From Acidimicrobiia bacterium (GTDB lineage Bacteria; Actinomycetota; Acidimicrobiia; IMCC26256; JACDBD01), in the NCBI GenBank assembly GCA_050743365.1, contig JBOGFI010000037.1:1-49570 (forward strand): a stretch of 49,570 bases of DNA. Reading direction: 5' to 3'. The translations under genes were made by a program, and so were the position numbers. The notes below the pieces were generated by a model, which did not search any database, was not told the DNA's origin, and saw only the letters and a program-made list of their open reading frames with translations. Shown piece after piece: positions 5,183 to 43,663 of this stretch (the first letter of the stretch is position 1; each line of letters opens with the position of its first letter).

Positions 5183-5256
5183 GCCCCCGTATCCCAACTG
5201 GCAGAGGAGAGGGTCTTAAACACCCTTCAGTGTGGGTTCGACTCCCACCGGGGGCA
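5183..5256 (+). tRNA. tRNA-like gene, class-I size, anticodon UAA (Leu codon UUA/UUG), discriminator A
   Basis: Hand fold: GCCCCCG-TA-TCCC-AACTGGCAG-AGGA-G-AGGGT-CTTAAAC-ACCCT-TCAGT-GTGGG-TTCGACT-CCCAC-CGGGGGC-A. It has a 7-bp acceptor, 5-bp anticodon stem and 5-bp T stem. U8, A14, G18G19, U33, A37, G53, T54-T55-C56, A58 and C61 are all present. No CCA is encoded. Confidence 0.55.
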
Positions 5257-9232: not shown

Positions 9233-10792
9233 CTACGCCAGGTCGGGAACAGGCTGGGGCGGCGGCGGGCCCGCGTAGTGGGCGCTGGGGCGGATCAGCC
9301 GGTTGTCGGCCGCTTGCTCGAGGATGTGGCTGGTCCAGCCGATCACGCGACTGGACGCGAACGTGGGAGTGAACATCTCGCGGGGGACGCCGCAGGTGTC
9401 CATCACGATCCCGGCGTAGAACTCGACGTTAGTGTAGAGCTGGCGGCCCGGCTTCAGCTCGGCGAGCACGTCGACGGCCTTCTTCTCGATCGCCTTGGCC
9501 AGATCGACCTTGGGCCCGCCGAGCCGCTCGGCGACGCCGCGAAGCATGACCGAGCGGGGGTCGTCGGTCTTGTAGACGCGGTGGCCGAAACCCATGAGCC
9601 GGTCGCCCCGTTCCACCGCGTCGCGTAGCCACGGCTCGGCTTTATCCTCGGTTCCGATGGCGTCGAGCATGTCGAGGGCCCGGCTCGGCGCACCGCCGTG
9701 CAACGGGCCCGACAACGCGCCGATCGCCCCCACGACCGCCGAGCTCAGGTCTGCGCCCGTGGACGTGATCACTCGGGCGGTGAACGTCGACGCGTTGAAG
9801 CCGTGGTCGATCGTCGAGATGAGGTACTGCTCGACGGCGCGGGCGTGCCCGGGCTCCGGGACCTCTCCCAGCATCATGTACAGGTAGTTGGCGGCGTAGG
9901 ACAGCTCGGCGTGCGGGGCGATCGGCTCCATCCCATGCTTGAGCCGGTACAGCGCGGTCAGCAGCGTGGGCACCACCGCGCAGGTCTGGAGCGCCTGTCG
10001 ACGGAGCTCCTCGCGGCTCACGTCGAGCCAGGGCCGGAAGTCCAGGTCGACGCCCATCATCGAGGCGGTGGTGCGCAGCATGTCGAGCGGCGGCGCCTCG
10101 GGGCCGCCCAGCGCCGCGACCTGCGGCAGCAGGTCCTCGACATCGGGCGGGATCTCGCGCAGCGGGTTCACCTCGTCGATGAACCGGTTGCGCTCGTCGA
10201 CCGACGGCAGCTCGCCCTCGAAGAGCAGGTGCCACACGTCCTCGATGGTGCGCTTCTCGGCGAGCTCGACCGCGTTGTACTGGCGGTAGTGGTAGAAGCC
10301 CTCGAGGCCTCGTACGTCGCCGATGGCGGTGTCGGCCACGACGATGCCCTCGAGGCCCTTGGGGATGTCGGTGGCGGCCCGCTCGACCGGCAGGATCTGG
10401 GCGATCCTCATCAGGTCGCGCATCGATACCAGCCCGACGAGCTTGTCGTCGTCGACGACCGGAATGTGCCGGTACCCGTGCTCGGCGAGGCTCGCGAAGG
10501 CATCGGTGACCTCCTCGTCGGAGGCGACCGAGTCGGGGTCGGCCGTCATCCAGTCGGAGACCTTGTCGGCGCCCGTGTTGGCACCGGCGGCCGCGACTCG
10601 GATCATGTCGCGCTCGGTGAGGATGCCGATCGCCTTCTCGCCGTCGACGACGACGACGGAGCCGACCCGCTTCTCCCGCATCCGGGTGGCGGTGTCGGCG
10701 ATGGTCTCGCTCGCCGTGGCCGTGACCACCGGGTGGCTCATGATGTCGCCGACCGTGCGCGTTCCGGGTGCCTCGGTTGCGGCCATCGACAC
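9233..10792 (-). CDS. Citrate synthase with N-terminal CBS-pair domain
   Basis: Residues ~15-135 form two CBS repeats (VGDIMSHPVVTA...VGSVVVVD...GILTERDM; DWMTADPDSV...HIPVVDDDKLVGLVSMRDL). The rest is citrate synthase (GPLHGGAPS..., MGFGHRVYKTDDPR, TNVEFY). Confidence 0.9.
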   Translation of the reverse strand: MSMAATEAPGTRTVGDIMSHPVVTATASETIADTATRMREKRVGSVVVVDGEKAIGILTERDMIRVAAAGANTGADKVSDWMTADPDSVASDEEVTDAFASLAEHGYRHIPVVDDDKLVGLVSMRDLMRIAQILPVERAATDIPKGLEGIVVADTAIGDVRGLEGFYHYRQYNAVELAEKRTIEDVWHLLFEGELPSVDERNRFIDEVNPLREIPPDVEDLLPQVAALGGPEAPPLDMLRTTASMMGVDLDFRPWLDVSREELRRQALQTCAVVPTLLTALYRLKHGMEPIAPHAELSYAANYLYMMLGEVPEPGHARAVEQYLISTIDHGFNASTFTARVITSTGADLSSAVVGAIGALSGPLHGGAPSRALDMLDAIGTEDKAEPWLRDAVERGDRLMGFGHRVYKTDDPRSVMLRGVAERLGGPKVDLAKAIEKKAVDVLAELKPGRQLYTNVEFYAGIVMDTCGVPREMFTPTFASSRVIGWTSHILEQAADNRLIRPSAHYAGPPPPQPVPDLA

Positions 10793-17561: not shown

Positions 17562-17684
17562 TAGGAAGGCGTAGGAAGGCCTGCCAGCGCGTTCCTGGCC
17601 GCCAGGATTGCGCGGGAGTGGCGAGCGGCCCGGAGCGCGGCGGCAGGTACCCTGCCGCCGAGCGAGCGCGACCAGGAATGAGGG
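17562..17684 (+). repeat. Interspersed intergenic repeat, long copy A
   Basis: It carries tandem taggaaggcg/taggaaggcc, then ctgccag-N7-ctggc, a perfect 9-bp hairpin ggcggcagg-tac-cctgccgcc (17639..17659), and gcgaccaggaatgaggg. It abuts the merR-like stop codon at 17685. Confidence 0.8.
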
Positions 17685-31682: not shown

Positions 31683-32402
31683 GTGGCGCCCTCGGCAGTC
31701 GTCGACAACGCCGTCTCCTTCCGCCGGCCGGGCCTCGGACTGCTCGCGCTCGAGGCGCCCCGCGCCGTCGCCGAGCTGGGCGCGTTCGGCGCCGCCCTGC
31801 CGCTGCTGCGGCTCGCGCCCCGCGGTTACGGCCACCCGGTGGTGGTGCTTCCCGGCTTCATGGCCTCCGACCGCTCCACCCGGCCGCTGCGGTGGTTCCT
31901 CCGGGACCGTGGCTACCACGTGCACGGGTGGAGGCTGGGCGCCAACCTCGGCCCGACCGACCACATCATCGAAGGCCTCGACGCACGTCTGACCCGGCTG
32001 CGCGAGGTCCACGGCGGGCACAAGCTGAGCCTGATCGGCTGGAGTCTGGGCGGGATCTACGCCCGCGAGATCGCCCGGGCGAACCCCGACGGCATCCGTC
32101 AGGTGATCACCCTCGGGAGCCCGTTCCGGCTCACCGACGGGGACGGGAGCCATGCCTCCGGCCGCGAGCCACCGCCGCTGCGCGTCCCGTCGACCGCCAT
32201 CTACAGCCGCACCGACGGGATCGCGGCGGGGGAGTCGTGCCACGATGGCCACGGCGAGCTCCGCGAGTGCGTCGAGGTGATCGGCAGCCACTGCGGCCTC
32301 GGGCACCACCCGGCCGTGCTGCTGGTGATCGCCGACCGGCTCGCCCAGCCCGACGGCGCGTGGCGGCCGTTCTCGCTCCGCCGTCTCCTCGCTCGGCGCT
32401 AG
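31683..32402 (+). CDS. Alpha/beta hydrolase family protein
   Basis: HPVVVLPGFMASDRSTRPLRWFLRDRGYHVHGW...LSLIGWSLGGIYAREIA (GxSxG)...VITLGSPF. The GTG at 31683 was chosen and the start is uncertain. The TAG stop is the first triplet of repeat copy B. Confidence 0.75.
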   Translation: MAPSAVVDNAVSFRRPGLGLLALEAPRAVAELGAFGAALPLLRLAPRGYGHPVVVLPGFMASDRSTRPLRWFLRDRGYHVHGWRLGANLGPTDHIIEGLDARLTRLREVHGGHKLSLIGWSLGGIYAREIARANPDGIRQVITLGSPFRLTDGDGSHASGREPPPLRVPSTAIYSRTDGIAAGESCHDGHGELRECVEVIGSHCGLGHHPAVLLVIADRLAQPDGAWRPFSLRRLLARR

Positions 32403-32456
32403 GAAGGCCTGCCAGCCCGATGCTGGCCGCCAGGGGAGCGCGACCAGGAATGAGGG
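32400..32456 (+). repeat. Interspersed intergenic repeat, copy B
   Basis: Sequence is taggaaggcctgccag-cccgatg-ctggccgccagg...gagcgcgaccaggaatgaggg. It has the same ends as copy A, the same GCCAG-N7-CTGGC hairpin with a different loop, and an internal deletion relative to A. Confidence 0.8.
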
Positions 32457-32476
32457 ACCTGATCAGAGCAGATCAG

Positions 32477-32492
32477 ACGAGCGCGGGCTCGT
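32477..32492 (-). terminator. Short GC hairpin 3 nt after the stop of the 86-codon ORF
   Basis: Minus strand reads ACGAGC-ccgc-GCUCGU (6 bp, 4-nt loop), followed by a CUGAUCUGCUCUGAUC tail that is U-rich for this genome. Confidence 0.4.
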
Positions 32493-32494
32493 GC

Positions 32495-32755
32495 TCACGA
32501 CGGTGTGACCTGCGCTGCCATGGCGTAGAGGAGCTCCCGCTCGCTCTCCTCGGCAGCCCGAAGGAGCAGCAGCGCATGGGCGTCGATGTGCTGAAGGATC
32601 GCGTCCGAAGCGAGTGAACGCAGCAGCTCTGGCGGGATCGCATCGACTTCGACAGATTCGCCCTTGAAGCGCTTCGCTCGGGCGTCGGTGCGCTTGGTCG
32701 GTGGCCACGCTTCCCCCGTTCGGCTCGGCGCGATCGGGGGAAGAAGAGGAAGCAC
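32495..32755 (-). CDS. Small hypothetical protein (86 aa), probably leaderless and LexA-controlled
   Basis: The GTG at 32755 lies 5 nt after the TAGGGT -10 element. Translation is VLPLLPPIAPSRTGEAWPPTKRTDARAKRFKGESVEVDAIPPELLRSLASDAILQHIDAHALLLLRAAEESERELLYAMAAQVTPS. 22 of 86 codons end in A/T, which is unusual here. Confidence 0.5.
   Translation of the reverse strand: MLPLLPPIAPSRTGEAWPPTKRTDARAKRFKGESVEVDAIPPELLRSLASDAILQHIDAHALLLLRAAEESERELLYAMAAQVTPS
32710..32743 (-). other. Conserved hairpin of SOS module 1
   Basis: Minus strand reads CUUCCCCCG-16 nt-CGGGGGAAG (9 bp), followed by CGUG. It shares the 12-mer GGGGGAAGCGTG with module 2 at 41670..41681. Confidence 0.5.
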
Positions 32756-32760
32756 TCGCT

Positions 32761-32789
32761 ACCCTAGCGAACGTACGTTCGGCTGTCAA
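32761..32789 (-). promoter_or_regulatory. Near-consensus promoter: TTGACA, 17-nt spacer, TAGGGT
   Basis: Minus strand reads TTGACA (32789..32784), gccgaacgtacgttcgc, TAGGGT (32766..32761). The spacing is exactly 17 nt. Confidence 0.7.
32768..32781. promoter_or_regulatory. LexA (SOS) box, perfect palindrome CGAAC-GTAC-GTTCG
   Basis: cgaacgtacgttcg is a perfect 14-bp palindrome. It matches the Gram-positive/actinobacterial GAAC-N4-GTTC consensus and lies inside the promoter spacer. Confidence 0.75.
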
Positions 32790-32827
32790 GCGATGGGAGC
32801 GGCTTCACGACAGAGATCCTGATCAGA

Positions 32828-35152
32828 TCAGAGAAGCCCCTCGTGACGAAGCCGGCGCAGCGTGACGTAGCCGAGAGGGATCGGCAGCCAGTAGGTCAAG
32901 AGCCGGAACGTCAGGACACCGGCGACAGCGAGGCTGGCGTCGGTGCCCGCCGCGGTGAGGCCGGCCATCAACGCCGCTTCCACCGCGCCGAGCCCGCCCG
33001 GCGTCGGTGCGGCGCCGCCGACGGTGCTGCCGCCGAGGTACACGACGATGGCCGTGCTCGCGCCGACGTGCGCGTGCACCGCCGCGAGCGCGGCGGCGAA
33101 GCAGATGATGTTCAGCAGGATCACCGCCAGCGCGCCGCCCAGCAGCGCGAACGCCTTGGCCGGGTCGCGCAGGACCACGCCGAGCTCAGTGAACGCGCTG
33201 CGGATCGGCTGGAGCAGCCGTCGGCCGATGGCGGTGAAGAAGATGACACCGGCGACGGCGCCGACGACCACCACCGCCACGAGGATCTCCCAGTCCGCCG
33301 GCCGGGGCACGCCGAACCCGCTGGAGCCGATGAGGGGGATGGCGGCGGCGATGGCGACGAGGCGGGCGATGCCCCCTGCCACCGAGTTGAGGGCGGTCCC
33401 GGTCACCGCCTCCTCCGAACTGAGGCCCGAACGCTGGAGGAAGCGGATGCGCACCGCGAGGGTGCCGATCGACGCGGGCGTCAGCCGGCTCGTGAACGCC
33501 GCCGCCAGCTGCATCGCCGTCGCGCGCGTGAGCGCGATCTGCTGGCGCACGGCGCCCGTCTGCGACCAGCCCCCGGCGACGTAGGTGAGCAGCGACGCGA
33601 CCAGCGCGAGGGCGAGCCATCCAGGGTTGGACTCGCGGATCGCCTCGAACGCGCGCCCCAGCTCGCCGACCTGGGGCGCGAGGAGGTGGACGCCCAGCCC
33701 GAGCACCGCGACCACGAGGATGGTCTCGGGCCGGATGCGGGTCAGCGGCTCGAGCTTGGGCTCCTCGACCCCGGCGCCGTGCGCCGCCTGGGCCCGGACC
33801 TCGTCGAGCAGGCCCTTGTGGCCGCGCAGCGCGCGGCGGGTGGTGGACGACAGCACCGCCGGCTGGAGGAGCGGCAGCGCCGGAACGAGTGCCGCGGCGC
33901 CGATCCCGCGGGCCGCGCTGGCCACCGCGCGTTCGGCGCCCACGCGAATCGCGAGCGACACGAGCAGCTCGGCGACGTCCTCGGCGACGCGCCGGTCGGT
34001 GGCGGCCGACCGCCCGTCGGCCCAGTCGACCAGCGAGACCCGACCGCCGGCGACGTAGACGTTCTCTGCCCGGAGGGCGCCGTGGGCGAGATGCACGGCG
34101 TGGAGGGTGGCGACATTGCGCCACAGGTCGTCGAGGACGCCGTTGCCGAGCTTCGTCGGATCCAGTGAGGAGAGCGGGGTTCCCGGCGCGAGCTCCTCCA
34201 TCAGCACCGCCGCGCCGGTGAACCCGGCGGTGACCCAGACCGTCGGCGTGCAAACGCCCGCTCGTTGCGCGAGGAGGGCCAGATACGCCTCGTGCTCGAC
34301 TGCCTGGAGAGACGTGAAGAACGGCTGGTCGTGTTGGTCCCGCAGCGCTACCGCCCGCCAGGCCTTGTCGAGCAAGTCGGTGTCGCGCTCGTCGCGTCCG
34401 ATCGCCCGGCAGAACACGGCGGTGCCGTCGGCGGCGTGGCCCGTGAACACGGCCGAGCCGCGGCGGCCGAGTCCGGCGGGCGTGAGGTCGCTGATCGGAC
34501 GGCCGGTGCGGGCGAGCGCGTCGCGAACGGCCGCCAGCATCGGGCGTCCGCCGGGAGCGCCGAACGCGAGATGCACGAGCGCGCCCGCCACCCAGCCCAC
34601 GGCGAAGCCGCCGACCGCGTCGACCGGCAGATGCGCGCCTACGTAGATGCGCGCCAGCGCGACCAGCGCGACCACCGCCCACAGCAGCCGCCGGGGCCGG
34701 CGAGTGAGGAAGGGCGATGCCGCGGTCGCGAGCCCGGCGGCCACCGCGACGTAGGGCGACGGGAAGCCGAGGCCGCTGGCCTCGATGCCCCGCAGCTCGA
34801 CCCCCTTCAGGAGCCCCGCGGGAGCGTCGCGCTCGACGAGCCGCTCGACGAGCTCGGCCGCCCCCCACGAGAGCGCCGCCGCCACCACGAGGTCGCGGGC
34901 CAGCCGCAGCCGCCGGAACACGAGCGCGAGAAGCGGCGCGGCGGCTGCCGCCACCAGGGTCGCGGCCAGCACCACGCGGAACGGGTCCTCCATGAACCCG
35001 GGCAGCGTGTTGATCGCCTGGAACACGTTGGCCTCGGTCAGGCCGACGCGTCCGTCCCGCACCGACAACGCCGCCAGCACCAGGAGCACCACGCCGAGGA
35101 CGACGCGGATGACGTCGCCCGGGTGCCGCTCCGGCCGGTCCGGCGCGGCCAC
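32828..35152 (-). CDS. Three-domain membrane protein: PAP2-like phosphatase, protein-kinase-like (probably inactive) domain, LPG_synthase_TM/UPF0104 flippase-like domain
   Basis: PAP2: GFPSPY...RIYVGAHLPVDAVGG. Kinase-like: VFCRAIGRDERD...LHAVHLAHGALRAENVYV...LVDWADG. C-terminus is polytopic with GGAAPTPGGLGAVEAAL. Start set at the GTG at 35152; an alternative TTG at 35161 overlaps the upstream stop. Confidence 0.85.
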   Translation of the reverse strand: MAAPDRPERHPGDVIRVVLGVVLLVLAALSVRDGRVGLTEANVFQAINTLPGFMEDPFRVVLAATLVAAAAAPLLALVFRRLRLARDLVVAAALSWGAAELVERLVERDAPAGLLKGVELRGIEASGLGFPSPYVAVAAGLATAASPFLTRRPRRLLWAVVALVALARIYVGAHLPVDAVGGFAVGWVAGALVHLAFGAPGGRPMLAAVRDALARTGRPISDLTPAGLGRRGSAVFTGHAADGTAVFCRAIGRDERDTDLLDKAWRAVALRDQHDQPFFTSLQAVEHEAYLALLAQRAGVCTPTVWVTAGFTGAAVLMEELAPGTPLSSLDPTKLGNGVLDDLWRNVATLHAVHLAHGALRAENVYVAGGRVSLVDWADGRSAATDRRVAEDVAELLVSLAIRVGAERAVASAARGIGAAALVPALPLLQPAVLSSTTRRALRGHKGLLDEVRAQAAHGAGVEEPKLEPLTRIRPETILVVAVLGLGVHLLAPQVGELGRAFEAIRESNPGWLALALVASLLTYVAGGWSQTGAVRQQIALTRATAMQLAAAFTSRLTPASIGTLAVRIRFLQRSGLSSEEAVTGTALNSVAGGIARLVAIAAAIPLIGSSGFGVPRPADWEILVAVVVVGAVAGVIFFTAIGRRLLQPIRSAFTELGVVLRDPAKAFALLGGALAVILLNIICFAAALAAVHAHVGASTAIVVYLGGSTVGGAAPTPGGLGAVEAALMAGLTAAGTDASLAVAGVLTFRLLTYWLPIPLGYVTLRRLRHEGLL

Positions 35153-35157
35153 TTCCG

Positions 35158-36795
35158 TCAAGCGTGCTGTCCCTCGAGCGCCTGTTCGGCCAGGCGCCGC
35201 GCGATCACCCGCAGGCACAGCGTCTCGTCGGCGCCCTCGAAGATCGACAGCACGCGGGCGTCGACGAAGTAGCGCGACACCGGGAACTCCTCGGCGTAGC
35301 CCATTCCGCCGTGGAGCTGCATGGCCTCGCGCGTGACCCACTCGGCGGCACGGCACACGTAGGCCTTGACCATCGACGCCTGCAACGCGCCCTCGCCGTT
35401 GGCCATGCGCCGGGCGACGTCGTACGAGAACTGGCGGCCCGCCTGGATGAGTGCGGCCATCCGGGCGAGCTTGGCCCGGCTCAGCTGGTAGTCGAACACC
35501 GCCTTGCCGAACACGCGCCGCTCCTGTGCGTACCCGAGCCCGGCCTCGAACGCGGCCTGCATGAGCCCGACGGCACGTGCCGCAGTCTGGAGCCGGCCGT
35601 TCTCGAAGCCCTCCATCTGGAGGTAGAAGCCCTTGCCCAGACCGCCCTCCTCGCCGACGAGGTTCTCGGCCGGCACCAGCCAGTCGTCGAACGCGACCTC
35701 GTAGGAGTGCATGCCGCGGTAGCCGAGCGTGTCGATGGCGCGGCCCTCGACCTTGCCGCCGCCGTCCTGGGTGAACGAGAACGAGTGCCCCGGCGCCGGC
35801 TCCTTCTCCACCACGAACAACGACAGCCCCCGGTGGCCGGCGGCGCGGTCGAGGTCGGTGCGCGCCAGCAGCATGAGCACGTCAGCGCGCCCCGCGAAGG
35901 TGGCCCACGTCTTGACGCCGTTGATGCGGTAGCCGCCGCCATCGGCCGGCGTCGCGGTCACCTTGAGGTTGGCGACGTCGGAGCCGAAGTCGGGCTCGGT
36001 GACCATCACGCCCACCATCAGGTCACCGCTGGCCAGGCCGGGCAGCCACCGCTGCTTCTGCTCCTCGGTGCCGCCCCTCACGATCGCCCGCGTGAGGATT
36101 TCGGGTCGGGTGATGAGCGAGCCGCCCACGCCCAGCGAGCCCCACGACAGCTCCTCGGTCGCCACGACCATGCCGAGGTAGTCGTGCTCGCCGCCGGCGG
36201 CGAACCCCCCGTACTCCTCGGGCACCGACAGACCGAAGCCGCCGATCTCGGCGAGGCCGGCGATCACGTCCTCGGGGATGTCTGCGTTGGCGCGGTGCAC
36301 GTGCTCGGCGACCGGCCGCACCTTCTCCTCGGCGAAGCGGTGGAACGTCTCGCGCACGAGGTCGAAGTCGTCGGAGAGGTGCGCCGGCCCGGTGCCGTGC
36401 TTCTCCACCTGCTGGGCGAGCGAGTCGAGGAACTGGGGCGCGCGGTGCGCGGCGACGAAGGGCAGGGTGGGGGCGAGCACGCCGGGCTCGACACCCCACG
36501 CCTCGTCCCGGGCGATGAGGCGAGCGCCGATATCGGCGACGGTGTCGGCGACGAACGCGCGAGCGAGCATCGACTCCAGCTCGCCGTGCCCGGCGTACCC
36601 GAGCATCACCCGGCACCCCTCGACCGCGCTGGCCGCGTGGGCGAGGTCGTAGGCGACCACCTGGTGGGAGTCGAGCTTCCCGACCGCTACCCGCCCGTCG
36701 TCGGCGGAGGCGTCGGCCAGATAGGCAGCGGCGGCCGCCACGATCTCGCCGGCGGCGTCGACCGCGGCCGCGGCCGCGTCGAGATGGTCCGTCAT
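35158..36795 (-). CDS. Acyl-CoA dehydrogenase (long form with N-terminal extension)
   Basis: FGLSVPEEYGG...MVTEPDFGSDVANL...INGVKTWATFAG...YAQERRVFGK...MQLHGGMGYAEEFPVSRYFVDARVLSIFEG. Confidence 0.9.
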   Translation of the reverse strand: MTDHLDAAAAAVDAAGEIVAAAAAYLADASADDGRVAVGKLDSHQVVAYDLAHAASAVEGCRVMLGYAGHGELESMLARAFVADTVADIGARLIARDEAWGVEPGVLAPTLPFVAAHRAPQFLDSLAQQVEKHGTGPAHLSDDFDLVRETFHRFAEEKVRPVAEHVHRANADIPEDVIAGLAEIGGFGLSVPEEYGGFAAGGEHDYLGMVVATEELSWGSLGVGGSLITRPEILTRAIVRGGTEEQKQRWLPGLASGDLMVGVMVTEPDFGSDVANLKVTATPADGGGYRINGVKTWATFAGRADVLMLLARTDLDRAAGHRGLSLFVVEKEPAPGHSFSFTQDGGGKVEGRAIDTLGYRGMHSYEVAFDDWLVPAENLVGEEGGLGKGFYLQMEGFENGRLQTAARAVGLMQAAFEAGLGYAQERRVFGKAVFDYQLSRAKLARMAALIQAGRQFSYDVARRMANGEGALQASMVKAYVCRAAEWVTREAMQLHGGMGYAEEFPVSRYFVDARVLSIFEGADETLCLRVIARRLAEQALEGQHA

Positions 36796-38081: not shown

Positions 38082-39950
38082 TCAGGCGGGCTCGGCGGCC
38101 CGCTCGAGCTGGGTGCGGTAGAGGTCGGCGTAGAGCCCGCCGGCCCGCACGAGCTCCTCGTGTCGGCCCTCCTCGACGATGCGGCCCTCGTCCATCACCA
38201 GGATCCGGTCGGCGGCCACGATGGTCGACAGGCGGTGCGCGATGACGAGCGCGGTGCGGCCGCGCAGGGCGTCGGCCAGGGCGCGCTGGATGGCGAGCTC
38301 CGACTCGGAGTCGAGGTGCGAGGTCGCCTCGTCGAGCACGACCACCCGCGGGCTCTTGAGCAACATGCGGGCGATGGCGAGCCGTTGCTTCTCGCCGCCC
38401 GACATCCGGTAGCCCCGCTCGCCCACGATGGTGTCGTAGCCCTCGGGCAGCGACTCGATGAGCTCGTGGATGCGCGCGGCGCGGGACGCCTCGACGAGCT
38501 CGGCGTCGGTGGCGTCTGGCCGCGCGTACCGCAGGTTCTCTCGGATCGACTCGTGGAAGAGGTGCGGGTCCTGCATCACCACGCCCACCGCCCCGCGCAG
38601 CGACTCGAGCGTGAGCTCACGCACGTCGACGCCGTCGAAGGTGACGCGCCCCTGGCTCACGTCGTGGATGCGCGGCACCAGCATCGCGGTGGTGGTCTTG
38701 CCCGCGCCCGACGGGCCGACCAGCGCCACCAACTCGCCCGGCTCCACCGTGAAGCTGACGTCGCGCAGGATCCAGGCGCTGGGGTCGTCGCCGGGCACGA
38801 CGACGCCTTCCTCGAGCGAGGCCAGCGACGCCAGCGCCGCCGGCGGATGGCGGAACCACACGTGCTCGAAGGCGATGCGGCCGTCGGGCGCGACGAGGTC
38901 CACCGCGCCGGGATGGTCGGTGACCCTGGAGGGGAAGTCGAGCACCTCGAACACCCGCTCGAACGCCACCAGAGCCGTCATCACGTCGACCCGGGCGTTC
39001 GTGAGCTGGGTGAGCGGCTGGTAGATCTGCCCGACGTACACGACGAAGGCGGCGATGGTCCCTATCTGGATGGCGCCCGAGATCACGAGGTTGCCGCCGA
39101 CGTAGTACACGACGGCGGTACCCACGGCGGCCACGAGCCCGAGGGCCACGAAGAGCACACGGGCGTACATGGCGCTGGTCACGCCGATGTCGCGCACACG
39201 GCTCGCGCGGCCCGAGAACCCCTCGCGCTCCTGGTCGTGGCGGCCGAAGAGCTTCACCACCAGCGCCCCGGCAACGTTGAAGCGCTCGGCGATGGTGTTG
39301 TTCATCGACGCGTTGAGCTGCATGCCCTCCCGGGTGACGGCCTGGAGCCGGCGGCCGATGCGTCGCGCCGGGATGACGAACGCCGGCAACACCAGCAGCG
39401 TGAGGATGGTGAGACGCCACTCGAGCACGAGCATGAACGTGAGCGTGACGGTGAGGGTGATGACGTTCGAGACGACGGTTCCGAGCGTGTTCGTGACCGC
39501 TTGCTGGGCGCCGATCACGTCGTTGTTGAGCCGCGACATCAACGCGCCGGTCTGCGTGCGGGTGAAGAACGAGATCGGTAGCCGCTGCACGTGGTCGAAC
39601 AGCGCCACCCGCATGTCGTAGATCAGCCCCTCACCGATGCGGGCGGAGTACCAGCGCTGGAACAGGGAGAGCGCGGCGCTGGCCAGCGCGAGGCCCACCG
39701 CGCCTACCGCGAGGACCGTCACCATGGCCCGGTCGCGGTCGGGGACGGCCGTGTCGAGGAGCGCCTTGAGCAGCAGCGGCGGGATCGCGGTGACGACCGC
39801 GGCGGCGACGACGCCGACCAGGAACCCGACCAGCAGCCCGCGATAGGGGTGGGCGAGCCGCAGCACGCGCCGCACCAGGGCGCGCTCGACGCGCTTGCCC
39901 CTCACGGCGTCGGGATCACGCCGGAAGCCCCAGATCGTCTGGTGCATCAT
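38082..39950 (-). CDS. ABC transporter, fused permease/ATP-binding exporter (MsbA-like)
   Basis: A six-TM N-domain, then the NBD with GPSGAGKTT (Walker A), LSGGEKQRLAIARML (signature) and VVVLDEATSHLD (Walker B). Confidence 0.9.
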   Translation of the reverse strand: MMHQTIWGFRRDPDAVRGKRVERALVRRVLRLAHPYRGLLVGFLVGVVAAAVVTAIPPLLLKALLDTAVPDRDRAMVTVLAVGAVGLALASAALSLFQRWYSARIGEGLIYDMRVALFDHVQRLPISFFTRTQTGALMSRLNNDVIGAQQAVTNTLGTVVSNVITLTVTLTFMLVLEWRLTILTLLVLPAFVIPARRIGRRLQAVTREGMQLNASMNNTIAERFNVAGALVVKLFGRHDQEREGFSGRASRVRDIGVTSAMYARVLFVALGLVAAVGTAVVYYVGGNLVISGAIQIGTIAAFVVYVGQIYQPLTQLTNARVDVMTALVAFERVFEVLDFPSRVTDHPGAVDLVAPDGRIAFEHVWFRHPPAALASLASLEEGVVVPGDDPSAWILRDVSFTVEPGELVALVGPSGAGKTTTAMLVPRIHDVSQGRVTFDGVDVRELTLESLRGAVGVVMQDPHLFHESIRENLRYARPDATDAELVEASRAARIHELIESLPEGYDTIVGERGYRMSGGEKQRLAIARMLLKSPRVVVLDEATSHLDSESELAIQRALADALRGRTALVIAHRLSTIVAADRILVMDEGRIVEEGRHEELVRAGGLYADLYRTQLERAAEPA

Positions 39951-40002
39951 CTGCCGGCTTCAACCTACTCGGGCGCGAAGGGATTCCACCTAGGCTCCGG
40001 CC

Positions 40003-41157
40003 GTGCCGACCGACCCCGCCGTGCGCGAGGAGCTCGTCTCGACCGTGCGCCGGTTCGTCGAGCGCGAGGTGCTGCCGGTCGCGCTCGACCTCGAGCACGC
40101 CGACGCGTACCCGGCCCAGATCGTGGCGGGCATGCGCGCCCTCGGCCTCTTCGGGGTCACCATCCCCGAGGAGTACGGCGGGCTCGGGCTCGACCTCCGC
40201 ACCTACGCGGGCGTGATCGAGGAGCTGGCCGCGGGGTGGATGTCGCTGTCGGGGATCCTCAACACCCACGTCATGGCGGCGAACCTGCTGAAGGCCTACG
40301 CCACCGAGGAGCAGCGCAAGCGTTGGCTCCCTGCCCTCGCCGCGGGCGAGATCCGGGGCTGCCTGTCACTCTCGGAGGCCGACGCCGGCAGCGACACCAG
40401 CGCCCTCACCTGCCGGGCGGTGCGCGATGGCGACGAGTACGTCATCACCGGCACCAAGATGTGGGTCACGAACGGGCAGCGGGCCGGCCTCGTCGCGCTG
40501 GCGGCGCGCACCGACGAGGGCATCACGTGCTTCATGGTCGACAAGGAGCCCGATGCGCAGCGCTCGGGCGGCATCACGGTGAGCCGCGAGATCGGCAAGC
40601 TCGGGTACAAGGGGATCGAGACCGTGGAGATGGTCTACGAAGGCCACCGGGTGGGCGCCGACTGCGTGCTCGGCGGTGGCGACGGCCTCGGCCGCGGGCA
40701 GCACTTCATTCTCTCCGCGCTCGAGGTCGGTCGCATCAACATCGCGGCACGCGCCGTCGGCGTCGCCCGGGCCGCCTTCGAGGCCGCAATCCGCTATGCG
40801 CAGGAACGGCAGACGTTCGGGAAGCCCATTGCGCAGCACCAGGCGATCCAGATGAAGCTGGCCGACATGGGCACGAAGCTCGAGGCGGCTCGGCTCCTGA
40901 CTGCTCATGCCGCCGAGCTCAAGGAGTCGGGTGCCCGCTGCGACGTCGAGGCCGGGATGGCGAAGCTGTTCGCCAGCGAGGCTGCGTTCGAGATCGCCAC
41001 CGACGCCATGCGCATCCACGGCGGCATGGGTTACACGACCGAGCTGCCGGTCGAGCGCTACTACCGCGACGCGCCACTCATGATCATCGGTGAAGGGACC
41101 AACGAGATCCAGCGGCTCGTGATCGCGCGCGGGCTGCTCGAGCGGTACCAGGCCTAA
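40003..41157 (+). CDS. Acyl-CoA dehydrogenase
   Basis: [14 protein letters not shown]...[13 protein letters not shown]...[11 protein letters not shown]...[19 protein letters not shown]...[35 protein letters not shown]. Confidence 0.9.
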
Positions 41158-41159
41158 GC

Positions 41160-41594
41160 ATGGACGATCGCACCGGCGCCGACACGGTGCGGCGGTTCAA
41201 CGAGGAGCTGCCGTGGGGTCCGTTTCCGTCAATGATCGGGCTCGAGATGCTCGAGATCGAACGCGATGTCGTGCGCGGCCGGCTCGGCGTCACGGACCGC
41301 CTGCTGGCCGGGACCGGGTTCCTGTGGGCACCGGTGGTCGTCGGGCTCGCCGACGCGCTGTGCGCGGCGGGTACCGGCGCCAACCTGCCCGAGGGTGCGA
41401 GCTTCACCACGGTCGAGCTCAAGACAAACTTCCTCGGCTCGGCGCGGGGCGGCGAGGCGGTCGAGGGGGAGGCTCGGCCCGCGCACCTCGGCCGCACAAC
41501 CCAGGTGTGGGACGTGACGGTGACCAACACGACGTCGGGCCGGCTGATCGCGCTCCAGCGCTGCACCCAGATGATTCTCTACCCCAGGGCCTGA
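41160..41594 (+). CDS. PaaI-family (hotdog fold) thioesterase
   Basis: PFPSMIGLEMLEIERDVVRGRL...TTVELKTNFLGSARGGEAVEGEARPAHLGRTTQVWDVTV. Confidence 0.85.
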   Translation: MDDRTGADTVRRFNEELPWGPFPSMIGLEMLEIERDVVRGRLGVTDRLLAGTGFLWAPVVVGLADALCAAGTGANLPEGASFTTVELKTNFLGSARGGEAVEGEARPAHLGRTTQVWDVTVTNTTSGRLIALQRCTQMILYPRA

Positions 41595-41619
41595 CAGTCG
41601 AACACCTGTTCGATAGACG
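41591..41619 (+). promoter_or_regulatory. Promoter-like element of SOS module 2: CTGACA, 17 nt, TAGACG
   Basis: It has the same architecture as 32761..32789: a -35-like CTGACA that overlaps the thioesterase stop, a 17-nt spacer holding the LexA box, and a weaker -10-like TAGACG. Confidence 0.4.
41598..41613. promoter_or_regulatory. LexA (SOS) box, TCGAAC-ACCT-GTTCGA
   Basis: Both 6-nt arms match the mycobacterial/actinobacterial consensus TCGAAC-N4-GTTCGA exactly. It lies 4 nt after a stop codon in a convergent intergenic gap. Confidence 0.7.
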
Positions 41620-41639
41620 TGTGGCAACTTCCTATCGAG

Positions 41640-41679
41640 CGCTTCCCCGTCCTGGTCGGTCCTCCCGGAGGGGGAAGCG
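41640..41679 (+). other. Conserved hairpin of SOS module 2
   Basis: CGCUUCCCC-22 nt-GGGGAAGCG (9 bp), followed by UG. It shares CTTCC, CTTCCCC and GGGGGAAGCGTG with module 1. Confidence 0.5.
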
Positions 41680-41816
41680 TGTTCGCGCAGACGACCCGGG
41701 TCGACTCCGCCTGGGACGCTCACCCCCACACCACAAGCTCAAGACGCACTACGGCTGGAAGGTCGTCGGCACCACCACGACTGGGACCTCGCCCCACCCG
41801 ACGACCCCGATCCCCC

Positions 41817-42125
41817 CTAGACCGCGACCCCCTTCGCCCGCACCGGCTCGCCCAAGGTCAGCTCCGACTCGGCGATGAGCGGGCCGAACATCTTGGCCGC
41901 GGCGCCCATGGCCTCGCTGCCGCCGTGGGCGCCGAGCGCGGCGGTGTCGGCGTACAGCTCGTAGAACCAGAACACATCGGGATCGTCCTTCGAGCGGTTC
42001 ATCGCGTAGATCTCGGTTCCCGGCTCCTTCTCGACCGCCTGGAAGATCGAGTCGAAGGCGGCGACGAGCTCGTCGCCCTTCCCTTCCTTCGCCCGGAGCT
42101 TGGCGAGCATCGAGACCTTGGCCAT
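41817..42125 (-). CDS. Antibiotic biosynthesis monooxygenase (ABM) family protein
   Basis: About 100 aa of ferredoxin-like fold: MAKVSMLAKLRAKEGKGDELVAAFDSIFQAVEKEPGTEIYAMNRSKDDPDVFWFYELYAD. Confidence 0.85.
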   Translation of the reverse strand: MAKVSMLAKLRAKEGKGDELVAAFDSIFQAVEKEPGTEIYAMNRSKDDPDVFWFYELYADTAALGAHGGSEAMGAAAKMFGPLIAESELTLGEPVRAKGVAV

Positions 42126-42178
42126 CGCGGTTCCTTCCGTTCGGCCCGTCGGTAGGGCCCGTCGGTAGGCTCGGATCC

Positions 42179-42685
42179 ATGACCGAGCACGAGCGCGCGT
42201 TCGGACGCTACTTCGAGGACTTCGAGCCCGGCGACCTGTACCGGCACTGGCCGGGCAAGACCATCACCGAGTACGACGACCACCTGTTCTGCATGATCAC
42301 CATGAACCACCATCCGCTCCACACCGACGCGTGGTTCGCCGAGACCCAGACCCAGTTCGGCAAGAACGTGGTGGTCGGCAACCTCGTGTACTCGGTCGTC
42401 CTGGGCATGAGCGTGCCCGACGTGAGCGGCGTGGCCATCGCCAACCTCGAGGTCGAGAGGCTCGAGCACAAGATGCCGACGTTCCACGGCGACACCATCT
42501 ATGCCGAGACGAAGGTCCTCGACAAGAAGGAGTCGTCGAGCAAGCCCGACCGCGGAGTCGTGGGCGTCGAGACGCGCGGCTTCAACCAGCGCGGCGAGGA
42601 GGTGTGCTACTTCCGCCGCAAGGTGATGGTCCCCAAGCGCGAGGCGGCCAAGCCCCGGCAGCGGCCGTACACGTCCCCGGAGTAG
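42179..42685 (+). CDS. MaoC-family dehydratase (enoyl-CoA hydratase 2-like)
   Basis: FEDFEPGDLYRHWPGKTITEYDDHLFCMITMNHHPLHTD...GNLVYSVVLGMSV...FHGDTIYAETKVLD. Confidence 0.9.
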   Translation: MTEHERAFGRYFEDFEPGDLYRHWPGKTITEYDDHLFCMITMNHHPLHTDAWFAETQTQFGKNVVVGNLVYSVVLGMSVPDVSGVAIANLEVERLEHKMPTFHGDTIYAETKVLDKKESSSKPDRGVVGVETRGFNQRGEEVCYFRRKVMVPKREAAKPRQRPYTSPE

Positions 42686-42693
42686 CGCGCCCG

Positions 42694-43116
42694 GTGGCCG
42701 GTGCGGGCGAGTGCAGGTTCTGCGCCATCGTCGCCGGTGAGCTCGACGCCTGCGTCGTGCACGACACCGAGGACGTGGTCGCCTTCCTCGATCACCGGCC
42801 CGTGTTCCACGGTCACACGCTCGTCGTGCCTCGCGACCACGTCGACACGCTGCTCGACCTCCCGGCGGGGCTGGTGGAGCCGTTCTTCACCGAGGTCCAA
42901 CGGGTCGCCGCCGCCGTCACCGCGGCGATGGACGCCGAAGGCACGTTCGTCGCCATGAACAACGTGGTGAGCCAGAGCGTCCCCCACTTCCACGCCCACG
43001 TGGTGCCCCGGCGGCGCAAGGACGGGCTGCGCGGCTTCTTCTGGCCCCGCCACAAGTACGGGGGCGACGACGAGATGGCCGAGGTGGCGGAGCGGATCCG
43101 GCGCGCCCTGGTTTGA
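42694..43116 (+). CDS. HIT (histidine triad) family protein
   Basis: From the GTG at 42694: VAGAGECRFCAIVAGELDACVVHDTEDVVAFLDHRPVFHGHTLVVPRDH...VPHFHAHVVPR (HxHxHxx motif). Confidence 0.9.
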   Translation: MAGAGECRFCAIVAGELDACVVHDTEDVVAFLDHRPVFHGHTLVVPRDHVDTLLDLPAGLVEPFFTEVQRVAAAVTAAMDAEGTFVAMNNVVSQSVPHFHAHVVPRRRKDGLRGFFWPRHKYGGDDEMAEVAERIRRALV

Positions 43117-43138
43117 CAGGTCATGTAATATTGTAATT
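43113..43138 (+). promoter_or_regulatory. AT-rich control region with TTGACA, TAATAT and a tandem TGTAAT direct repeat
   Basis: Sequence is ttgacaggtcatgtaatattgtaatt. TTGACA overlaps the HIT stop. TGTAAT lies at 43124..43129 and 43132..43137 (8-nt period). TAATAT ends 7 nt before ATG 43139. Confidence 0.4.
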
Positions 43139-43663
43139 ATGAAAGAGGCATCGAGCAAGACCCGGGGATGGTTCGCCGGCCGCCTCCCCGACGGCTGGTT
43201 CACCGGTGCCCCCGAGGTGTCGTACGACCGTGAGGAGATCCTCGTCGTGGGGGCGCTGGCCGAGCCCGAGCTGGGCGACGACACCGACGACGCCGCCCGC
43301 GCCGCGGCACGGCGGGCGCGCGTCGAGGGATTCCGTGAGGACACTCGGGCGCAGCGAATCCGCATCGCCGCCGACGCCGAGCACAAGTTCGGCCGCAAGG
43401 TGGCCTGGGGCGCCGAGTGCGGCGGCGAGCGGGTGGTGTTCACCAGCCTGAGCGTTCCGGTGATGACCCGGCTGCGGATGGCGGAGCGTGGTGTCCTCGA
43501 CACCCTGGTGGAGGCCAACGTCGCCCGCAGCCGCAGCGAGGCGTTGGCCTGGTGCGTCCGCCTCGTGCGCGACCACGAGGCCGACTGGATCCAGCAGCTG
43601 CGAGACGCGCTCGCCCACGTCGACGAGGCGCGCGCCGACGGGCCCGACCCGTCCGGCGGGTGA
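43139..43663 (+). CDS. Conserved hypothetical protein with a C-terminal ribbon-helix-helix-like segment
   Basis: MKEASSKTRGWFAGRLPDGWFTGAPEVSYDREEILVVG...SVPVMTRLRMAERGVLDTLVEANVARSRSEALAWCVRLV (a CopG/RHH-like pattern). Confidence 0.7.
   Translation: MKEASSKTRGWFAGRLPDGWFTGAPEVSYDREEILVVGALAEPELGDDTDDAARAAARRARVEGFREDTRAQRIRIAADAEHKFGRKVAWGAECGGERVVFTSLSVPVMTRLRMAERGVLDTLVEANVARSRSEALAWCVRLVRDHEADWIQQLRDALAHVDEARADGPDPSGG

What the first reader, a model, noticed from the sequence alone, without database searches (positions are those of the whole stretch)
32457..32827. Self-contained SOS-controlled mini-gene in a low-GC3 islet bounded by CCTGATCAGA repeats
A complete compact transcription unit lies on the minus strand between the large membrane-protein gene and repeat copy B. 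Its parts are:
- a consensus -35 TTGACA (32789..32784);
- an exactly 17-nt spacer occupied by a perfect 14-bp LexA-type palindrome CGAACGTACGTTCG (32768..32781);
- a -10 TAGGGT (32766..32761);
- a GTG start only 5 nt further on (32755), which implies a leaderless mRNA;
- an 86-codon ORF;
- a 6-bp GC hairpin 3 nt after the stop.
The operator inside the spacer predicts tight LexA repression and DNA-damage induction. 22 of 86 codons end in A/T, whereas neighbouring genes use almost only G/C-ending codons, which suggests foreign origin. The segment is bracketed by near-identical direct repeats: cctgatcagagcagatcaga at 32458 and cctgatcagatcaga at 32819. The protein has a Pro-rich basic N-terminus and a helical acidic C-terminus (VEVDAIPPELLRSLASDAILQHIDAHALLLLRAAEESERELL). 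It resembles C-termini I have seen in mobile-element-associated hypothetical proteins, but I cannot name a family. Codons 5-16 also form a 9-bp hairpin shared with a second SOS module at 41591..41681. The transcript may therefore act as an RNA as well as, or instead of, an mRNA.
Basis: partly seen in the sequence, partly recalled or inferred. Interest (0 to 1): 0.7.

Follow-up and report, generated by a model that had tools for sequence, protein, structure and literature searches.

The report
Deleted remnant of SOS-controlled Mini-A gene
The "mini-gene" is what a frameshifting internal deletion left of a roughly 290-codon, DNA-damage-inducible topoisomerase-VI-A-like ("Mini-A") gene cassette, so it is most likely a dead relic that keeps a live-looking LexA-controlled promoter.

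Summary
The unit is not a self-contained gene.

A 99 %-identical relative (L012) carries at the same site a 271/294-aa gene behind the same promoter and hairpin leader, bounded by the same repeats. That gene has the Mini-A hallmarks (RQVFY, EKDAL, DYDPSG, SVEVDAI), and a family member has a Topo VI-A fold. Soil-metagenome contigs identical to the window on either side of position 32699-32701 continue into the missing coding sequence. The window therefore carries a roughly 0.67-kb deletion between two CCG triplets.

The family's normal start codon follows the hairpin (GTG 32708-32706) and is now out of frame with the remnant.

The promoter and leader module is otherwise the 5' region of LexA-regulated DUF222-HNH (13E12-type) genes. 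The "second SOS module" at 41.6 kb is an internally deleted copy of such a gene.

Verdict: a pseudogene remnant of a mobile, SOS-controlled nuclease-like cassette. Interest is modest.

The parts
32818..32832 (-). Left (upstream) direct repeat, CTGATCTGATCAGG on the gene strand. It overlaps the stop codon (32830-32828) of the MprF-like gene.
   Evidence: It is 100 % identical to L012, including the next 14 nt. An X3 and an X6 contig both break away from the window exactly at 32826.
32784..32789 (-). -35 hexamer TTGACA
   Evidence: Conserved as TTGACAG in L003, L004, L005, L007, L010, L012, L014 and further loci.
32768..32781 (.). LexA-type SOS box CGAACGTACGTTCG, filling the 17-nt spacer
   Evidence: 2 perfect sites against 0.07 expected. 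Mycobacterial consensus TCGAAC-N4-GTTCGA. The box holds the same position in more than 20 homologous modules.
32761..32766 (-). -10 hexamer TAGGGT (TANNNT type)
   Evidence: TAGRGT/TANNNT sits at the same place in the homologous modules. It is not called by the E. coli-type scan.
32710..32743 (-). 5' leader hairpin: CUUCCCCCGAUCG, an 8-nt loop, then CGAACGGGGGAAG. The 3' arm is the G-rich Shine-Dalgarno-like GGGGGAAG.
   Evidence: -26.3 kcal/mol, z = -2.27. An equivalent hairpin is predicted in all 21 distinct leaders. The 5' arm is present in every real hit of a search that did not require it and in L012, which was found by synteny.
32706..32708 (-). Canonical start codon of the module (GTG directly after GGGGGAAGC). 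It is now out of frame with the remnant and opens an 81-codon nonsense frame ending at 32463.
   Evidence: In the undeleted allele it reads GTG GCC ACC GCG ACC GCT TAT AGG..., parallel to L012's ATG TCA TCG AGC ACC GCG ACC GCT TAT AGG.
32699..32701 (-). Deletion junction: the CCG microhomology where about 0.67 kb of the gene was lost
   Evidence: X3 and X5 contigs match the window up to 32701 and then continue into intact coding sequence. X8 and X4 contigs match down to 32699, and X8 continues into the 5' coding region. Comparison with L012.
32495..32701 (-). Remnant coding sequence: the last ~68 codons plus stop of the Mini-A-like gene (T2BI-type box SVEVDAI and the terminal helices)
   Evidence: phrog_6247 positions 224-290 of 303. 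tblastn with the L012 protein covers residues 219-294 at 82 %. 91 % nt identity to L012, pN/pS 0.32. Alignment.
32495..32755 (-). It is a chimera: 17 codons of translated leader followed by the remnant.
32477..32492 (-). Terminator-like hairpin ACGAGC-CCGC-GCUCGU after the stop, with no U-tract
   Evidence: -10.9 kcal/mol, z = -1.36. L012 has a different 8-bp hairpin, GAGCGCGA-AG-UCGCGCUC, at the same place.
32458..32476 (-). Right (downstream) direct repeat, CTGATCTGCTCTGATCAGG. It equals the left repeat with a 5-nt insertion.
41591..41816 (+). Second SOS module with an internally deleted DUF222-HNH (13E12-type) pseudogene. It has CTGACA, TCGAACACCTGTTCGA, the leader hairpin and GTG at 41679, then the first 4 codons (VFAQ) and roughly the last 30 codons (...KLKTHYGWKVVGT...) in another frame.
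   Evidence: The orthologous locus L010 has the intact 374-aa gene. The window lacks L010 5474-6513.

Best explanation
The 370-bp islet is a recently truncated copy of a small mobile cassette. The cassette consists of a LexA-repressed promoter, a 5' leader hairpin that occludes the ribosome-binding G-run and start codon, and one gene for a Mini-A protein. Mini-A is a stand-alone homologue of the topoisomerase VI A subunit / Spo11, with a 5Y-CAP tyrosine domain and a Toprim domain. The cassette sits between two convergent host genes and is bounded by a 14-nt direct repeat that contains the palindrome CCTGATCAGG.

In this genome a deletion of about 0.67 kb between two CCG triplets removed everything from codon 4 of the extended frame to about codon 225. 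The lost part includes the catalytic tyrosine, the Toprim glutamate and the DxD motif.

What remains:
- an apparently intact SOS promoter and operator (inferred to be still LexA-repressed and damage-inducible);
- the leader hairpin;
- the native start codon, now reading a nonsense frame;
- the last ~68 codons of the gene;
- the terminator-like hairpin.

The 86-codon ORF exists only because a GTG in the leader happens to be in frame with the remnant. The locus is therefore best read as a pseudogene that may still be transcribed after DNA damage, and not as a gene selected to make an 86-aa protein.

Shown here: the homology, the deletion, its breakpoints, the frame relations, and the conservation of the module. 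Inferred: LexA binding, damage induction, the translational role of the hairpin, and non-function of the remnant.
For: 1. Only ORF residues 19-81 have homologues, and they align to positions 224-290 of the 303-position profile phrog_6247. The closest homologues are longer on the N-terminal side.

2. L012 has flanks 99.2-99.4 % identical to the window. Between the same hydrolase and MprF-like genes it has a 271-aa called gene, or 294 aa from the ATG right after the hairpin. It is preceded by the same TTGACAG / LexA box / -10 / CUUCCCCC...GGGGGAAGCG leader and bounded by perfect CTGATCTGATCAGG repeats.

3. That protein matches phrog_6247 at 1e-62 over nearly its full length and Pfam DUF2399 (a Toprim-type domain) above threshold. 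It has RQVFY, WLEKDAL, DYDPSG and SVEVDAI, which are the Mini-A hallmarks of PMC7671362. An AF2 model of family member P0159 (pLDDT 88) finds Topo VI A subunits as its eight best PDB matches, E = 4.5e-5 to 4.7e-3.

4. Metagenome contigs with 0 differences (X3, X8) or 1 difference (X5) from the window run on, past 32701, into ...CAAATCGCGGCGTGGAGTTTGCCTACCCGG|CCG (QIAAWSLPTR|P), and past 32699 into GTGGCCACCG|CGACCGCTTATAGGTCTAGGACTATAAGAG. This shows the undeleted allele and a CCG microhomology junction.

5. The canonical start after the hairpin is used by about 20 DUF222-HNH genes with the same module. In the window it is out of frame with the remnant and gives an 81-aa R/A/P-rich frame.

6. 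GTG 32755 has no counterpart in 19 of the 20 other distinct leaders.

7. The same fate befell the second module. Mod2 is an internally deleted HNH gene whose orthologue is intact in L010.

8. The allele is not an assembly error. An independent Logan contig of 3788 bp at depth 24 spans the locus with 0 differences.
Against: - The 86-codon frame is open and retains pN/pS of about 0.3 against L012. However, the deletion is recent: the sequence on each side of the junction is identical to the undeleted allele. So this signal reflects selection on the full-length gene.
- A second locus, L001, also has a LexA-type box and -10 abutting an N-terminally truncated copy (residues 161-291) in a different neighbourhood. 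L038, L039 and L040 also carry only the C-terminal half. Recurrent retention of the C-terminal part could mean it has a use of its own.
- The transcription start is unknown. If it falls exactly on GTG 32755, a leaderless 86-aa product would be made.
- No expression or LexA-binding data exist for this uncultured organism.
- Only the source sample (X1) has a contig that crosses the junction itself.
Confidence: 0.87

Rival explanations
1. One reading: a functional, self-contained SOS-induced gene. A leaderless mRNA starts at GTG 32755 and yields an 86-aa protein made of the C-terminal T2BI box and helices of Mini-A. It could act, for example, as a dominant-negative or immunity factor against Mini-A proteins of incoming elements.
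For: - The ORF is open and in frame with a GTG 5 nt after the -10.
- Leaderless mRNAs are common in Actinobacteria (own knowledge).
- Promoter-proximal C-terminal fragments of the family recur in L001 and L038-L040.
- The T2BI box is proposed to cover the catalytic tyrosine in type IIB topoisomerases.
Against: - The first 17 codons are a translated RNA hairpin leader with no protein homology.
- GTG 32755 is not conserved in the other leaders.
- The deletion is recent and seen across the junction only in one sample.
- The fragment starts inside the Toprim fold of the model and not at a domain boundary.
- Only 2 homologues were retrievable with the 86-aa query among 5.8 billion clusters, and neither is a short form of this kind.
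Confidence: 0.07
2. The locus makes an SOS-induced non-coding RNA. The roughly 260-300-nt transcript, with a 5' hairpin and a 3' hairpin, would act as a regulatory RNA, for example by convergent or antisense transcription into the 3' end of the hydrolase gene.
For: A strong promoter consensus with an operator, a stable 5' hairpin (-26 kcal/mol) and a 3' hairpin. It runs convergent to the hydrolase gene, whose stop lies 93 nt beyond the ORF stop.
Against: - No Rfam family matches.
- The hairpin is fully explained as the mRNA leader of DUF222-HNH and Mini-A genes.
- The 3' hairpin has no U-tract and a weak z-score of -1.36.
- The transcript body is a gene fragment identical to the coding allele.
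- No RNA data exist.
Confidence: 0.04
3. Assembly or chimera artefact: the short allele does not exist in any cell and was produced by mis-joining reads of the full-length cassette.
For: The junction microhomology is only 3 nt. Full-length versions of the same allele exist in other metagenomes. Only the source sample crosses the junction.
Against: An independently built Logan contig of 3788 bp at an even depth of 24 spans 31900-33400 with 0 differences. A 3-nt repeat cannot mislead a k-mer assembler. No competing full-length contig was seen in X1.
Confidence: 0.02

Closest known systems
Mini-A proteins (stand-alone Topo VI A-subunit homologues of viruses and proviruses; Takahashi et al., NAR Genom Bioinform 2019/2020, PMC7671362)
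   Same: The parent gene (L012, 271/294 aa) has the defining size of about 300 aa, an RxxF-Y catalytic tyrosine motif, a Toprim E and DxDxxG, and a C-terminal ExDA[LI] box. It has no B subunit nearby. Its relatives sit in integrase and primase-helicase islands. A family member has the Topo VI-A fold.
   Different: - The window copy keeps only the last ~68 residues and cannot be catalytic.
- The C-terminal box reads SVEVDAI, not xWELDAL.
- The actinomycete cassette is a single gene bounded by 14-nt repeats and not a recognisable provirus.
- It is placed under a LexA box. I found no paper linking Mini-A to the SOS response.
REP13E12 / DUF222-HNH genes of Mycobacterium tuberculosis, LexA-regulated (Davis et al. 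2002; Smollett et al. 2012, PMC3381160)
   Same: The promoter, LexA box and leader module of the finding is the same module that drives about 20 DUF222-HNH genes in related Actinomycetes. LexA binds six 13E12-family loci in M. tuberculosis, and DUF222 is the 13E12 family. They are multi-copy, often decayed, selfish-looking genes. Mod2 in the window is one.
   Different: The ORF in the finding has no DUF222 or HNH homology. Only the regulatory 5' region is shared. I did not find the hairpin leader that occludes the start codon described in the papers I read.
SOS-induced small toxin genes of E. coli with structured, translationally inert leaders (tisB/istR-1, dinQ/agrB) - own knowledge
   Same: It works like them in outline: a LexA-repressed promoter and an mRNA 5' structure that hides the ribosome-binding site of a potentially harmful product.
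   Different: There is no homology. The product here is hydrophilic and not a membrane peptide. No antisense RNA partner was found. The harmful product would be the full-length nuclease-like enzyme, not the 86-aa remnant.
Wadjet JetD / DUF2399 Toprim nucleases
   Same: The central Toprim region matches Pfam DUF2399 (26.3 bits against a cutoff of 23.4) and, weakly, the JetD models (E of about 1e-3).
   Different: There are no JetABC genes. The N-terminal domain is a 5Y-CAP with RxxFY and not the JetD arm. The fold search ranks Topo VI A first, not JetD.

Membership tests
Mini-A (type IIB topoisomerase A-like) | Length of about 300 residues with a 5Y-CAP domain plus a Toprim domain | tested here: not met
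   The window ORF is 86 aa, and only residues 19-86 are homologous, to the extreme C-terminus. The feature is met by the parent gene in L012 (271/294 aa).
Mini-A (type IIB topoisomerase A-like) | Catalytic tyrosine in an RxxY/F-Y motif | tested here: not met
   Deleted in the window. Present as RQVFY in L012.
Mini-A (type IIB topoisomerase A-like) | Toprim metal-binding E and DxDxxG | tested here: not met
   Deleted in the window. Present as WLEKDAL and DYDPSG in L012 and its homologues.
Mini-A (type IIB topoisomerase A-like) | C-terminal T2BI box (xWELDAL signature) | tested here: met
   The window has SVEVDAI. E, D, A and I are invariant in the alignment and nearly invariant (at least 90 %) in that. 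It is a variant, with V in place of W and V in place of L (one search gives the definition).
Mini-A (type IIB topoisomerase A-like) | Topo VI A-subunit fold | tested here: met
   Tested on family member P0159, not on the remnant. pLDDT is 88 and the top 8 PDB hits are Top6A chains. Sequence and profile searches of the PDB found nothing.
Actinobacterial LexA (SOS) regulon | SOS box matching TCGAAC-N4-GTTCGA and placed so as to block the promoter | tested here: met
   The CGAAC-N4-GTTCG core is perfect, but both outermost consensus positions are C in mod1. Mod2 is a perfect 16-mer. The box fills the -35/-10 spacer.
Actinobacterial LexA (SOS) regulon | LexA binding and RecA-dependent induction by DNA damage | not testable with these tools
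   The organism is uncultured and no RNA runs hold the stretch.
Leaderless protein-coding gene | Transcription start at the start codon, and a start codon conserved among homologues | tested here: not met
   The transcription start is not testable. GTG 32755 is absent at the equivalent place in 19 of the 20 other distinct leaders. The family start lies after the hairpin.
DUF222-HNH / REP13E12 family | DUF222 and HNH domains in the product | tested here: not met
   The ORF of the finding has no Pfam hit. Only the 5' regulatory module is shared. The feature is met by the genes in L004, L007, L010 and others and, in remnant form, by mod2.
Insertion-type mobile element (IS/MITE-like) | Flanking direct repeats with an empty site in relatives, and terminal inverted repeats | tested here: inconclusive
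   Direct repeats are present in the window and in L012. A candidate empty site appears only on a 60-nt X3 contig. I saw no terminal inverted repeats by eye in the L012 ends.
SOS-induced type I toxin (TisB/DinQ-like) | Short hydrophobic membrane peptide with an antisense RNA antitoxin | tested here: not met
   The product is hydrophilic and helical-acidic. No padloc or Pfam hit points that way. No antisense partner was identified.

The most novel reading that the evidence does not exclude
The promoter-leader-Mini-A unit may be an autonomous single-gene mobile cassette. Its Topo VI-A/Spo11-like enzyme would itself cut and rejoin DNA at the palindrome CCTGATCAGG between convergent genes. Expression would be licensed by the SOS response and throttled by the leader hairpin. 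The window copy would then be a non-autonomous deletion derivative. Its still-inducible C-terminal fragment, which carries the T2BI box proposed to cover the catalytic tyrosine, could interfere with incoming full-length copies.
Probability: 0.08. Interest if true: 0.75.

Novelty: new member of a known kind. Interest (0 to 1): 0.3.

Why it matters
For annotating this window it matters in a negative way. The 86-codon ORF should be called a pseudogene fragment and not a new SOS gene, and the module at 41.6 kb is a second decayed SOS-controlled selfish gene.

The context that explains it is of some wider interest:
- A Mini-A (stand-alone Topo VI-A/Spo11-like) gene lies directly under a LexA operator in soil and cave Actinomycetes. 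The function of Mini-A proteins is unknown, so damage-inducible expression is a testable clue.
- Two unrelated DNA-cutting gene families (DUF222-HNH and Mini-A) share one regulatory module, whose hairpin hides the ribosome-binding site and start codon. This suggests a common way of keeping dangerous nucleases silent until the SOS response.
- Near-identical strains differ here by full, deleted and possibly empty alleles. The locus is therefore a natural example of gain and decay of such cassettes.

Tried and rejected
- Pfam and NCBIfam on the 86-aa ORF gave nothing. Rfam on the whole window found only a tRNA at 5183-5256.
- I first took P0002/L001 (130 aa) for a near full-length gene, because many database homologues are 145-220 aa. 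tblastn with the L012 protein showed that these are N-terminally truncated or split copies.
- PDB sequence and profile searches gave no hits. Only the fold comparison linked the family to Topo VI A.
- Covariation test of the leader hairpin: the core 7 pairs are invariant, partly because my metagenome pattern fixed them, so there is no covariation evidence either way. Thermodynamic z-scores are modest (-2.3, -2.2, -0.4).
- The E. coli-type promoter scan gave no call and is not suited to TANNNT promoters. The one terminator-like hit overlaps the operator and -10, and I regard it as incidental.
- The MAFFT alignment of the window against L012 mis-placed the promoter block. I replaced it with segment-wise alignments.
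- JetD/Wadjet membership was rejected: the hits are weak and Toprim-only, and there are no partner genes.
- An RNA-level role has no data behind it.
- The empty-site evidence is weak, resting on a 60-nt contig. I do not rely on it.
Full report
OBSERVATION

On the minus strand the region reads TTGACA (32789-32784), GC-CGAACGTACGTTCG-C, TAGGGT (32766-32761), AGCGA, then GTG (32755). An 86-codon ORF follows, ending at 32495, and then an ACGAGC/GCTCGT stem. The perfect CGAAC-N4-GTTCG core occurs twice in the window, at 32768 and 41599. Shuffles give 0.07 expected. With one mismatch allowed there are 12 matches against 2.9 expected. GC3 of the ORF is 0.74 against 0.90-0.95 in the neighbouring genes. 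The flanking repeats are 15 nt and 93 % identical, at 32458 and 32818. The bare 10-mer is not significant on its own. An E. coli-type scan does not call the promoter because the -10 is of the TANNNT type.

WHAT THE ORF IS

The product has no Pfam or NCBIfam match and only two relatives among 5.8 billion protein clusters. Both relatives are longer on the N-terminal side. Against PHROGs, ORF residues 19-81 match positions 224-290 of the 303-position family phrog_6247, "DNA topoisomerase". So only the last fifth or so of a larger protein is present.

I looked for the orthologous locus through the neighbouring hydrolase. This found L012, a 14-kb metagenome contig whose flanks are 99.2-99.4 % identical to the window. 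Between the same two convergent genes L012 carries a 271-aa called gene, or 294 aa from an in-frame ATG directly after the hairpin. That protein matches phrog_6247 at 1e-62 over nearly its whole length and Pfam DUF2399 (a Toprim-type domain) above threshold. It carries RQVFY, WLEKDAL, DYDPSG and SVEVDAI. These correspond to the catalytic-tyrosine motif, the Toprim E and DxDxxG, and the C-terminal "T2BI" box that define Mini-A proteins. Mini-A proteins are the roughly 300-aa stand-alone homologues of the Topo VI A subunit found in viruses and proviruses (PMC7671362).

Sequence and profile searches of the PDB were empty. An AlphaFold model of family member P0159 (pLDDT 88, pTM 0.82) has Topo VI A subunits as its eight best PDB matches, with E = 4.5e-5 to 4.7e-3. 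JetD models match only weakly. Elsewhere the family sits in islands with a phage-type integrase, an HTH_36 protein and a primase/DnaB helicase.

THE DELETION

In L012 the gene is preceded by the same arrangement: TTGACAG, LexA box, -10, and a CUUCCCCC...GGGGGAAGCG hairpin. The unit is bounded by perfect CTGATCTGATCAGG repeats.

Segment by segment, the window and L012 compare as follows:

| Segment | Identity |
|---|---|
| MprF-like gene, last 600 nt | 99.2 % |
| Left repeat plus the next 14 nt | 100 % |
| Promoter and leader | 81 % |
| Remnant coding sequence | 91 % |

L012 therefore holds a different allele of the cassette. The window's own allele exists undeleted in soil metagenomes:
- An X3 contig is identical to 32575-32701. 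On the gene strand it continues upstream as CAAATCGCGGCGTGGAGTTTGCCTACCCGG|CCG..., which is QIAAWSLPTR|PTKRT.
- An X5 contig behaves in the same way.
- An X8 contig is identical to 32699-32789 and continues as GTGGCCACCG|CGACCGCTTATAGGTCTAGGACTATAAGAG. This is the counterpart of L012's sequence after the hairpin.

The two kinds of contig overlap the window at 32701-32699, which is CCG. The window thus carries a microhomology-flanked deletion of about 0.67 kb, judged from L012 coordinates. It removed the 5Y-CAP tyrosine and both Toprim metal-binding motifs. An independent Logan contig from the source cave metagenome spans the locus without a difference at an even depth of 24, so the short allele is not an assembly accident.

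READING FRAMES

In about 20 related loci the gene starts at the GTG or TTG directly after GGGGGAAGC. In the window that codon is GTG 32708-32706. After the deletion it reads GTG GCC ACC GAC CAA..., which is out of frame with the remnant (CCG ACC AAG...), and it gives an 81-codon R/A/P-rich frame. If the true start of the Mini-A gene is instead the ATG 69 nt further on, as called in L012, then the start is simply gone. Either way the remnant has lost its native initiation. It is in frame by chance and has no counterpart in 19 of the 20 other distinct leaders. Its first 17 codons are the translated hairpin.

THE SHARED MODULE AND THE SECOND SOS MODULE

Mod1 and mod2 share about 105 nt, from just upstream of the -35 to GGGGGAAGCGTG, and nothing beyond. 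The shared 12-mer lies in different frames in the two ORFs, so the similarity is at the nucleotide level.

A genome-collection scan required only the box, TAG and the 3' arm. It returned five Actinomycetes loci in which the module drives a 374-aa DUF222 + HNH gene. A metagenome scan added about 15 more, several of them frameshifted. DUF222 is the 13E12 repeat family. In M. tuberculosis LexA binds six 13E12-family loci, and the SOS box there is TCGAAC-N4-GTTCGA.

L010 is collinear with window 39075-43251 but has 1.04 kb that the window lacks. Mod2 keeps VFAQ and, in another frame...KLKTHYGWKVVGT... of the HNH C-terminus. Both SOS modules of the window are therefore decayed copies of SOS-controlled, nuclease-type selfish genes. 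Only L012 and mod1 couple the module to Mini-A.

HOW IT PROBABLY WORKS

This part is inferred. LexA bound across the -35/-10 spacer should block the promoter until RecA-stimulated cleavage. The transcript should begin a few nucleotides before CUUCC. The leader hairpin pairs the pyrimidine stretch with GGGGGAAGC, and in most copies also with the start codon. That would keep translation low.

The hairpin is predicted in all 21 distinct leaders, at -19.5 to -29.6 kcal/mol. It is present in loci found without requiring its 5' arm. However, z-scores are modest, and covariation could not be assessed because the core is invariant. In the window copy this machinery now drives a nonsense frame.

RIVALS

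A functional 86-aa leaderless product cannot be excluded:
- L001 also has a LexA-type box abutting an N-terminally truncated copy, in another neighbourhood.
- L038-L040 carry only the C-terminal half of the family.
- pN/pS of the remnant against L012 is 0.32.

Against this, the deletion is recent, so the pN/pS signal belongs to the full-length gene. The fragment also starts inside the Toprim fold. A regulatory-RNA role has no support.

MOBILITY

The cassette looks inserted, for these reasons:
- It has low GC3 and flanking repeats.
- Its alleles are about ten times more diverged than the flanks (pS 0.19 against about 0.8 % flank divergence).
- A 60-nt X3 contig joins 32400 to 32826. This last piece of evidence is weak.

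VERDICT

The "self-contained mini-gene" is a frameshifted deletion remnant of an SOS-controlled Mini-A cassette. It is a new (dead) member of known kinds. The modestly interesting by-products are the link between LexA and Mini-A, and the leader shared with 13E12-type genes.

Noticed in passing
window 41591-41816 (+); L010 5389-6587: The second SOS module is an internally deleted DUF222-HNH (13E12-type) pseudogene. It keeps the promoter, LexA box (a perfect TCGAACACCTGTTCGA), leader hairpin, GTG and 4 codons, then about 30 C-terminal codons in another frame. The orthologous locus L010 has the intact 374-aa gene.
   Followed up: yes
window 32402-32434 and 17574-17606: A 33-nt hairpin-forming repeat, GGAAGGCCTGCCAGCCCGATGCTGGCCGCCAGG, occurs twice in the window (3 mismatches between copies, 0 expected by chance). 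It attracts many unrelated contigs in the metagenomes X1, X3, X4, X5 and X6. It is probably a small REP-like dispersed element. It lies in a stretch of about 52 nt that L012 lacks, between the hydrolase stop and the right repeat.
   Followed up: partly
window 31615/31662 versus L012 1320-6889: The 99 %-identical relative L012 has about 5.5 kb that is absent from the window at this point. It encodes OpuAC-, PAP2- (three) and LPG_synthase_TM-domain proteins. This is a second large indel between near-identical strains, 1 kb from the finding.
   Followed up: no
L012 about 9590-9615 (minus strand); X8 contig: An AT-rich perfect inverted repeat, CTTATAG-N8-CTATAAG, lies between the leader hairpin and the called ATG of the Mini-A gene. 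It is conserved in the undeleted allele (X8) and lost in the window. It may be a protein-binding site, and its rare codons cast doubt on whether the 23-codon N-terminal extension is translated.
   Followed up: no
L038/L039 3986-4408; L040 3780-4408; L001 195-587: Copies of the Mini-A-like family on long contigs from other bacteria often carry only the C-terminal half, starting at the internal MVTRGY. L040 lacks residues 82-146, which include the Toprim glutamate. This is either recurrent decay or a genuine short or split form.
   Followed up: partly
L003, L005, L019, L023, L024, L036: Several DUF222-HNH genes behind the same SOS module are frameshifted or truncated (204, 353, 84, 93, 238 and 135 codons instead of 374). 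Decay of these SOS-controlled genes appears common.
   Followed up: no
window 32753-32773 (-): The terminator scan reports a 9-pair stem, CGUUCGCUA-GGG-UAGCGAGUG, followed by a pyrimidine-rich tail. It overlaps half of the LexA box and the -10. It could terminate read-through from the MprF-like gene, or it may be incidental.
   Followed up: no
window 32828-35356 (-): The upstream 842-aa gene combines PAP2 phosphatase domains, a weak kinase-like match and an LPG_synthase_TM (MprF-type) domain. Its stop codon lies inside the cassette's left repeat.
   Followed up: no
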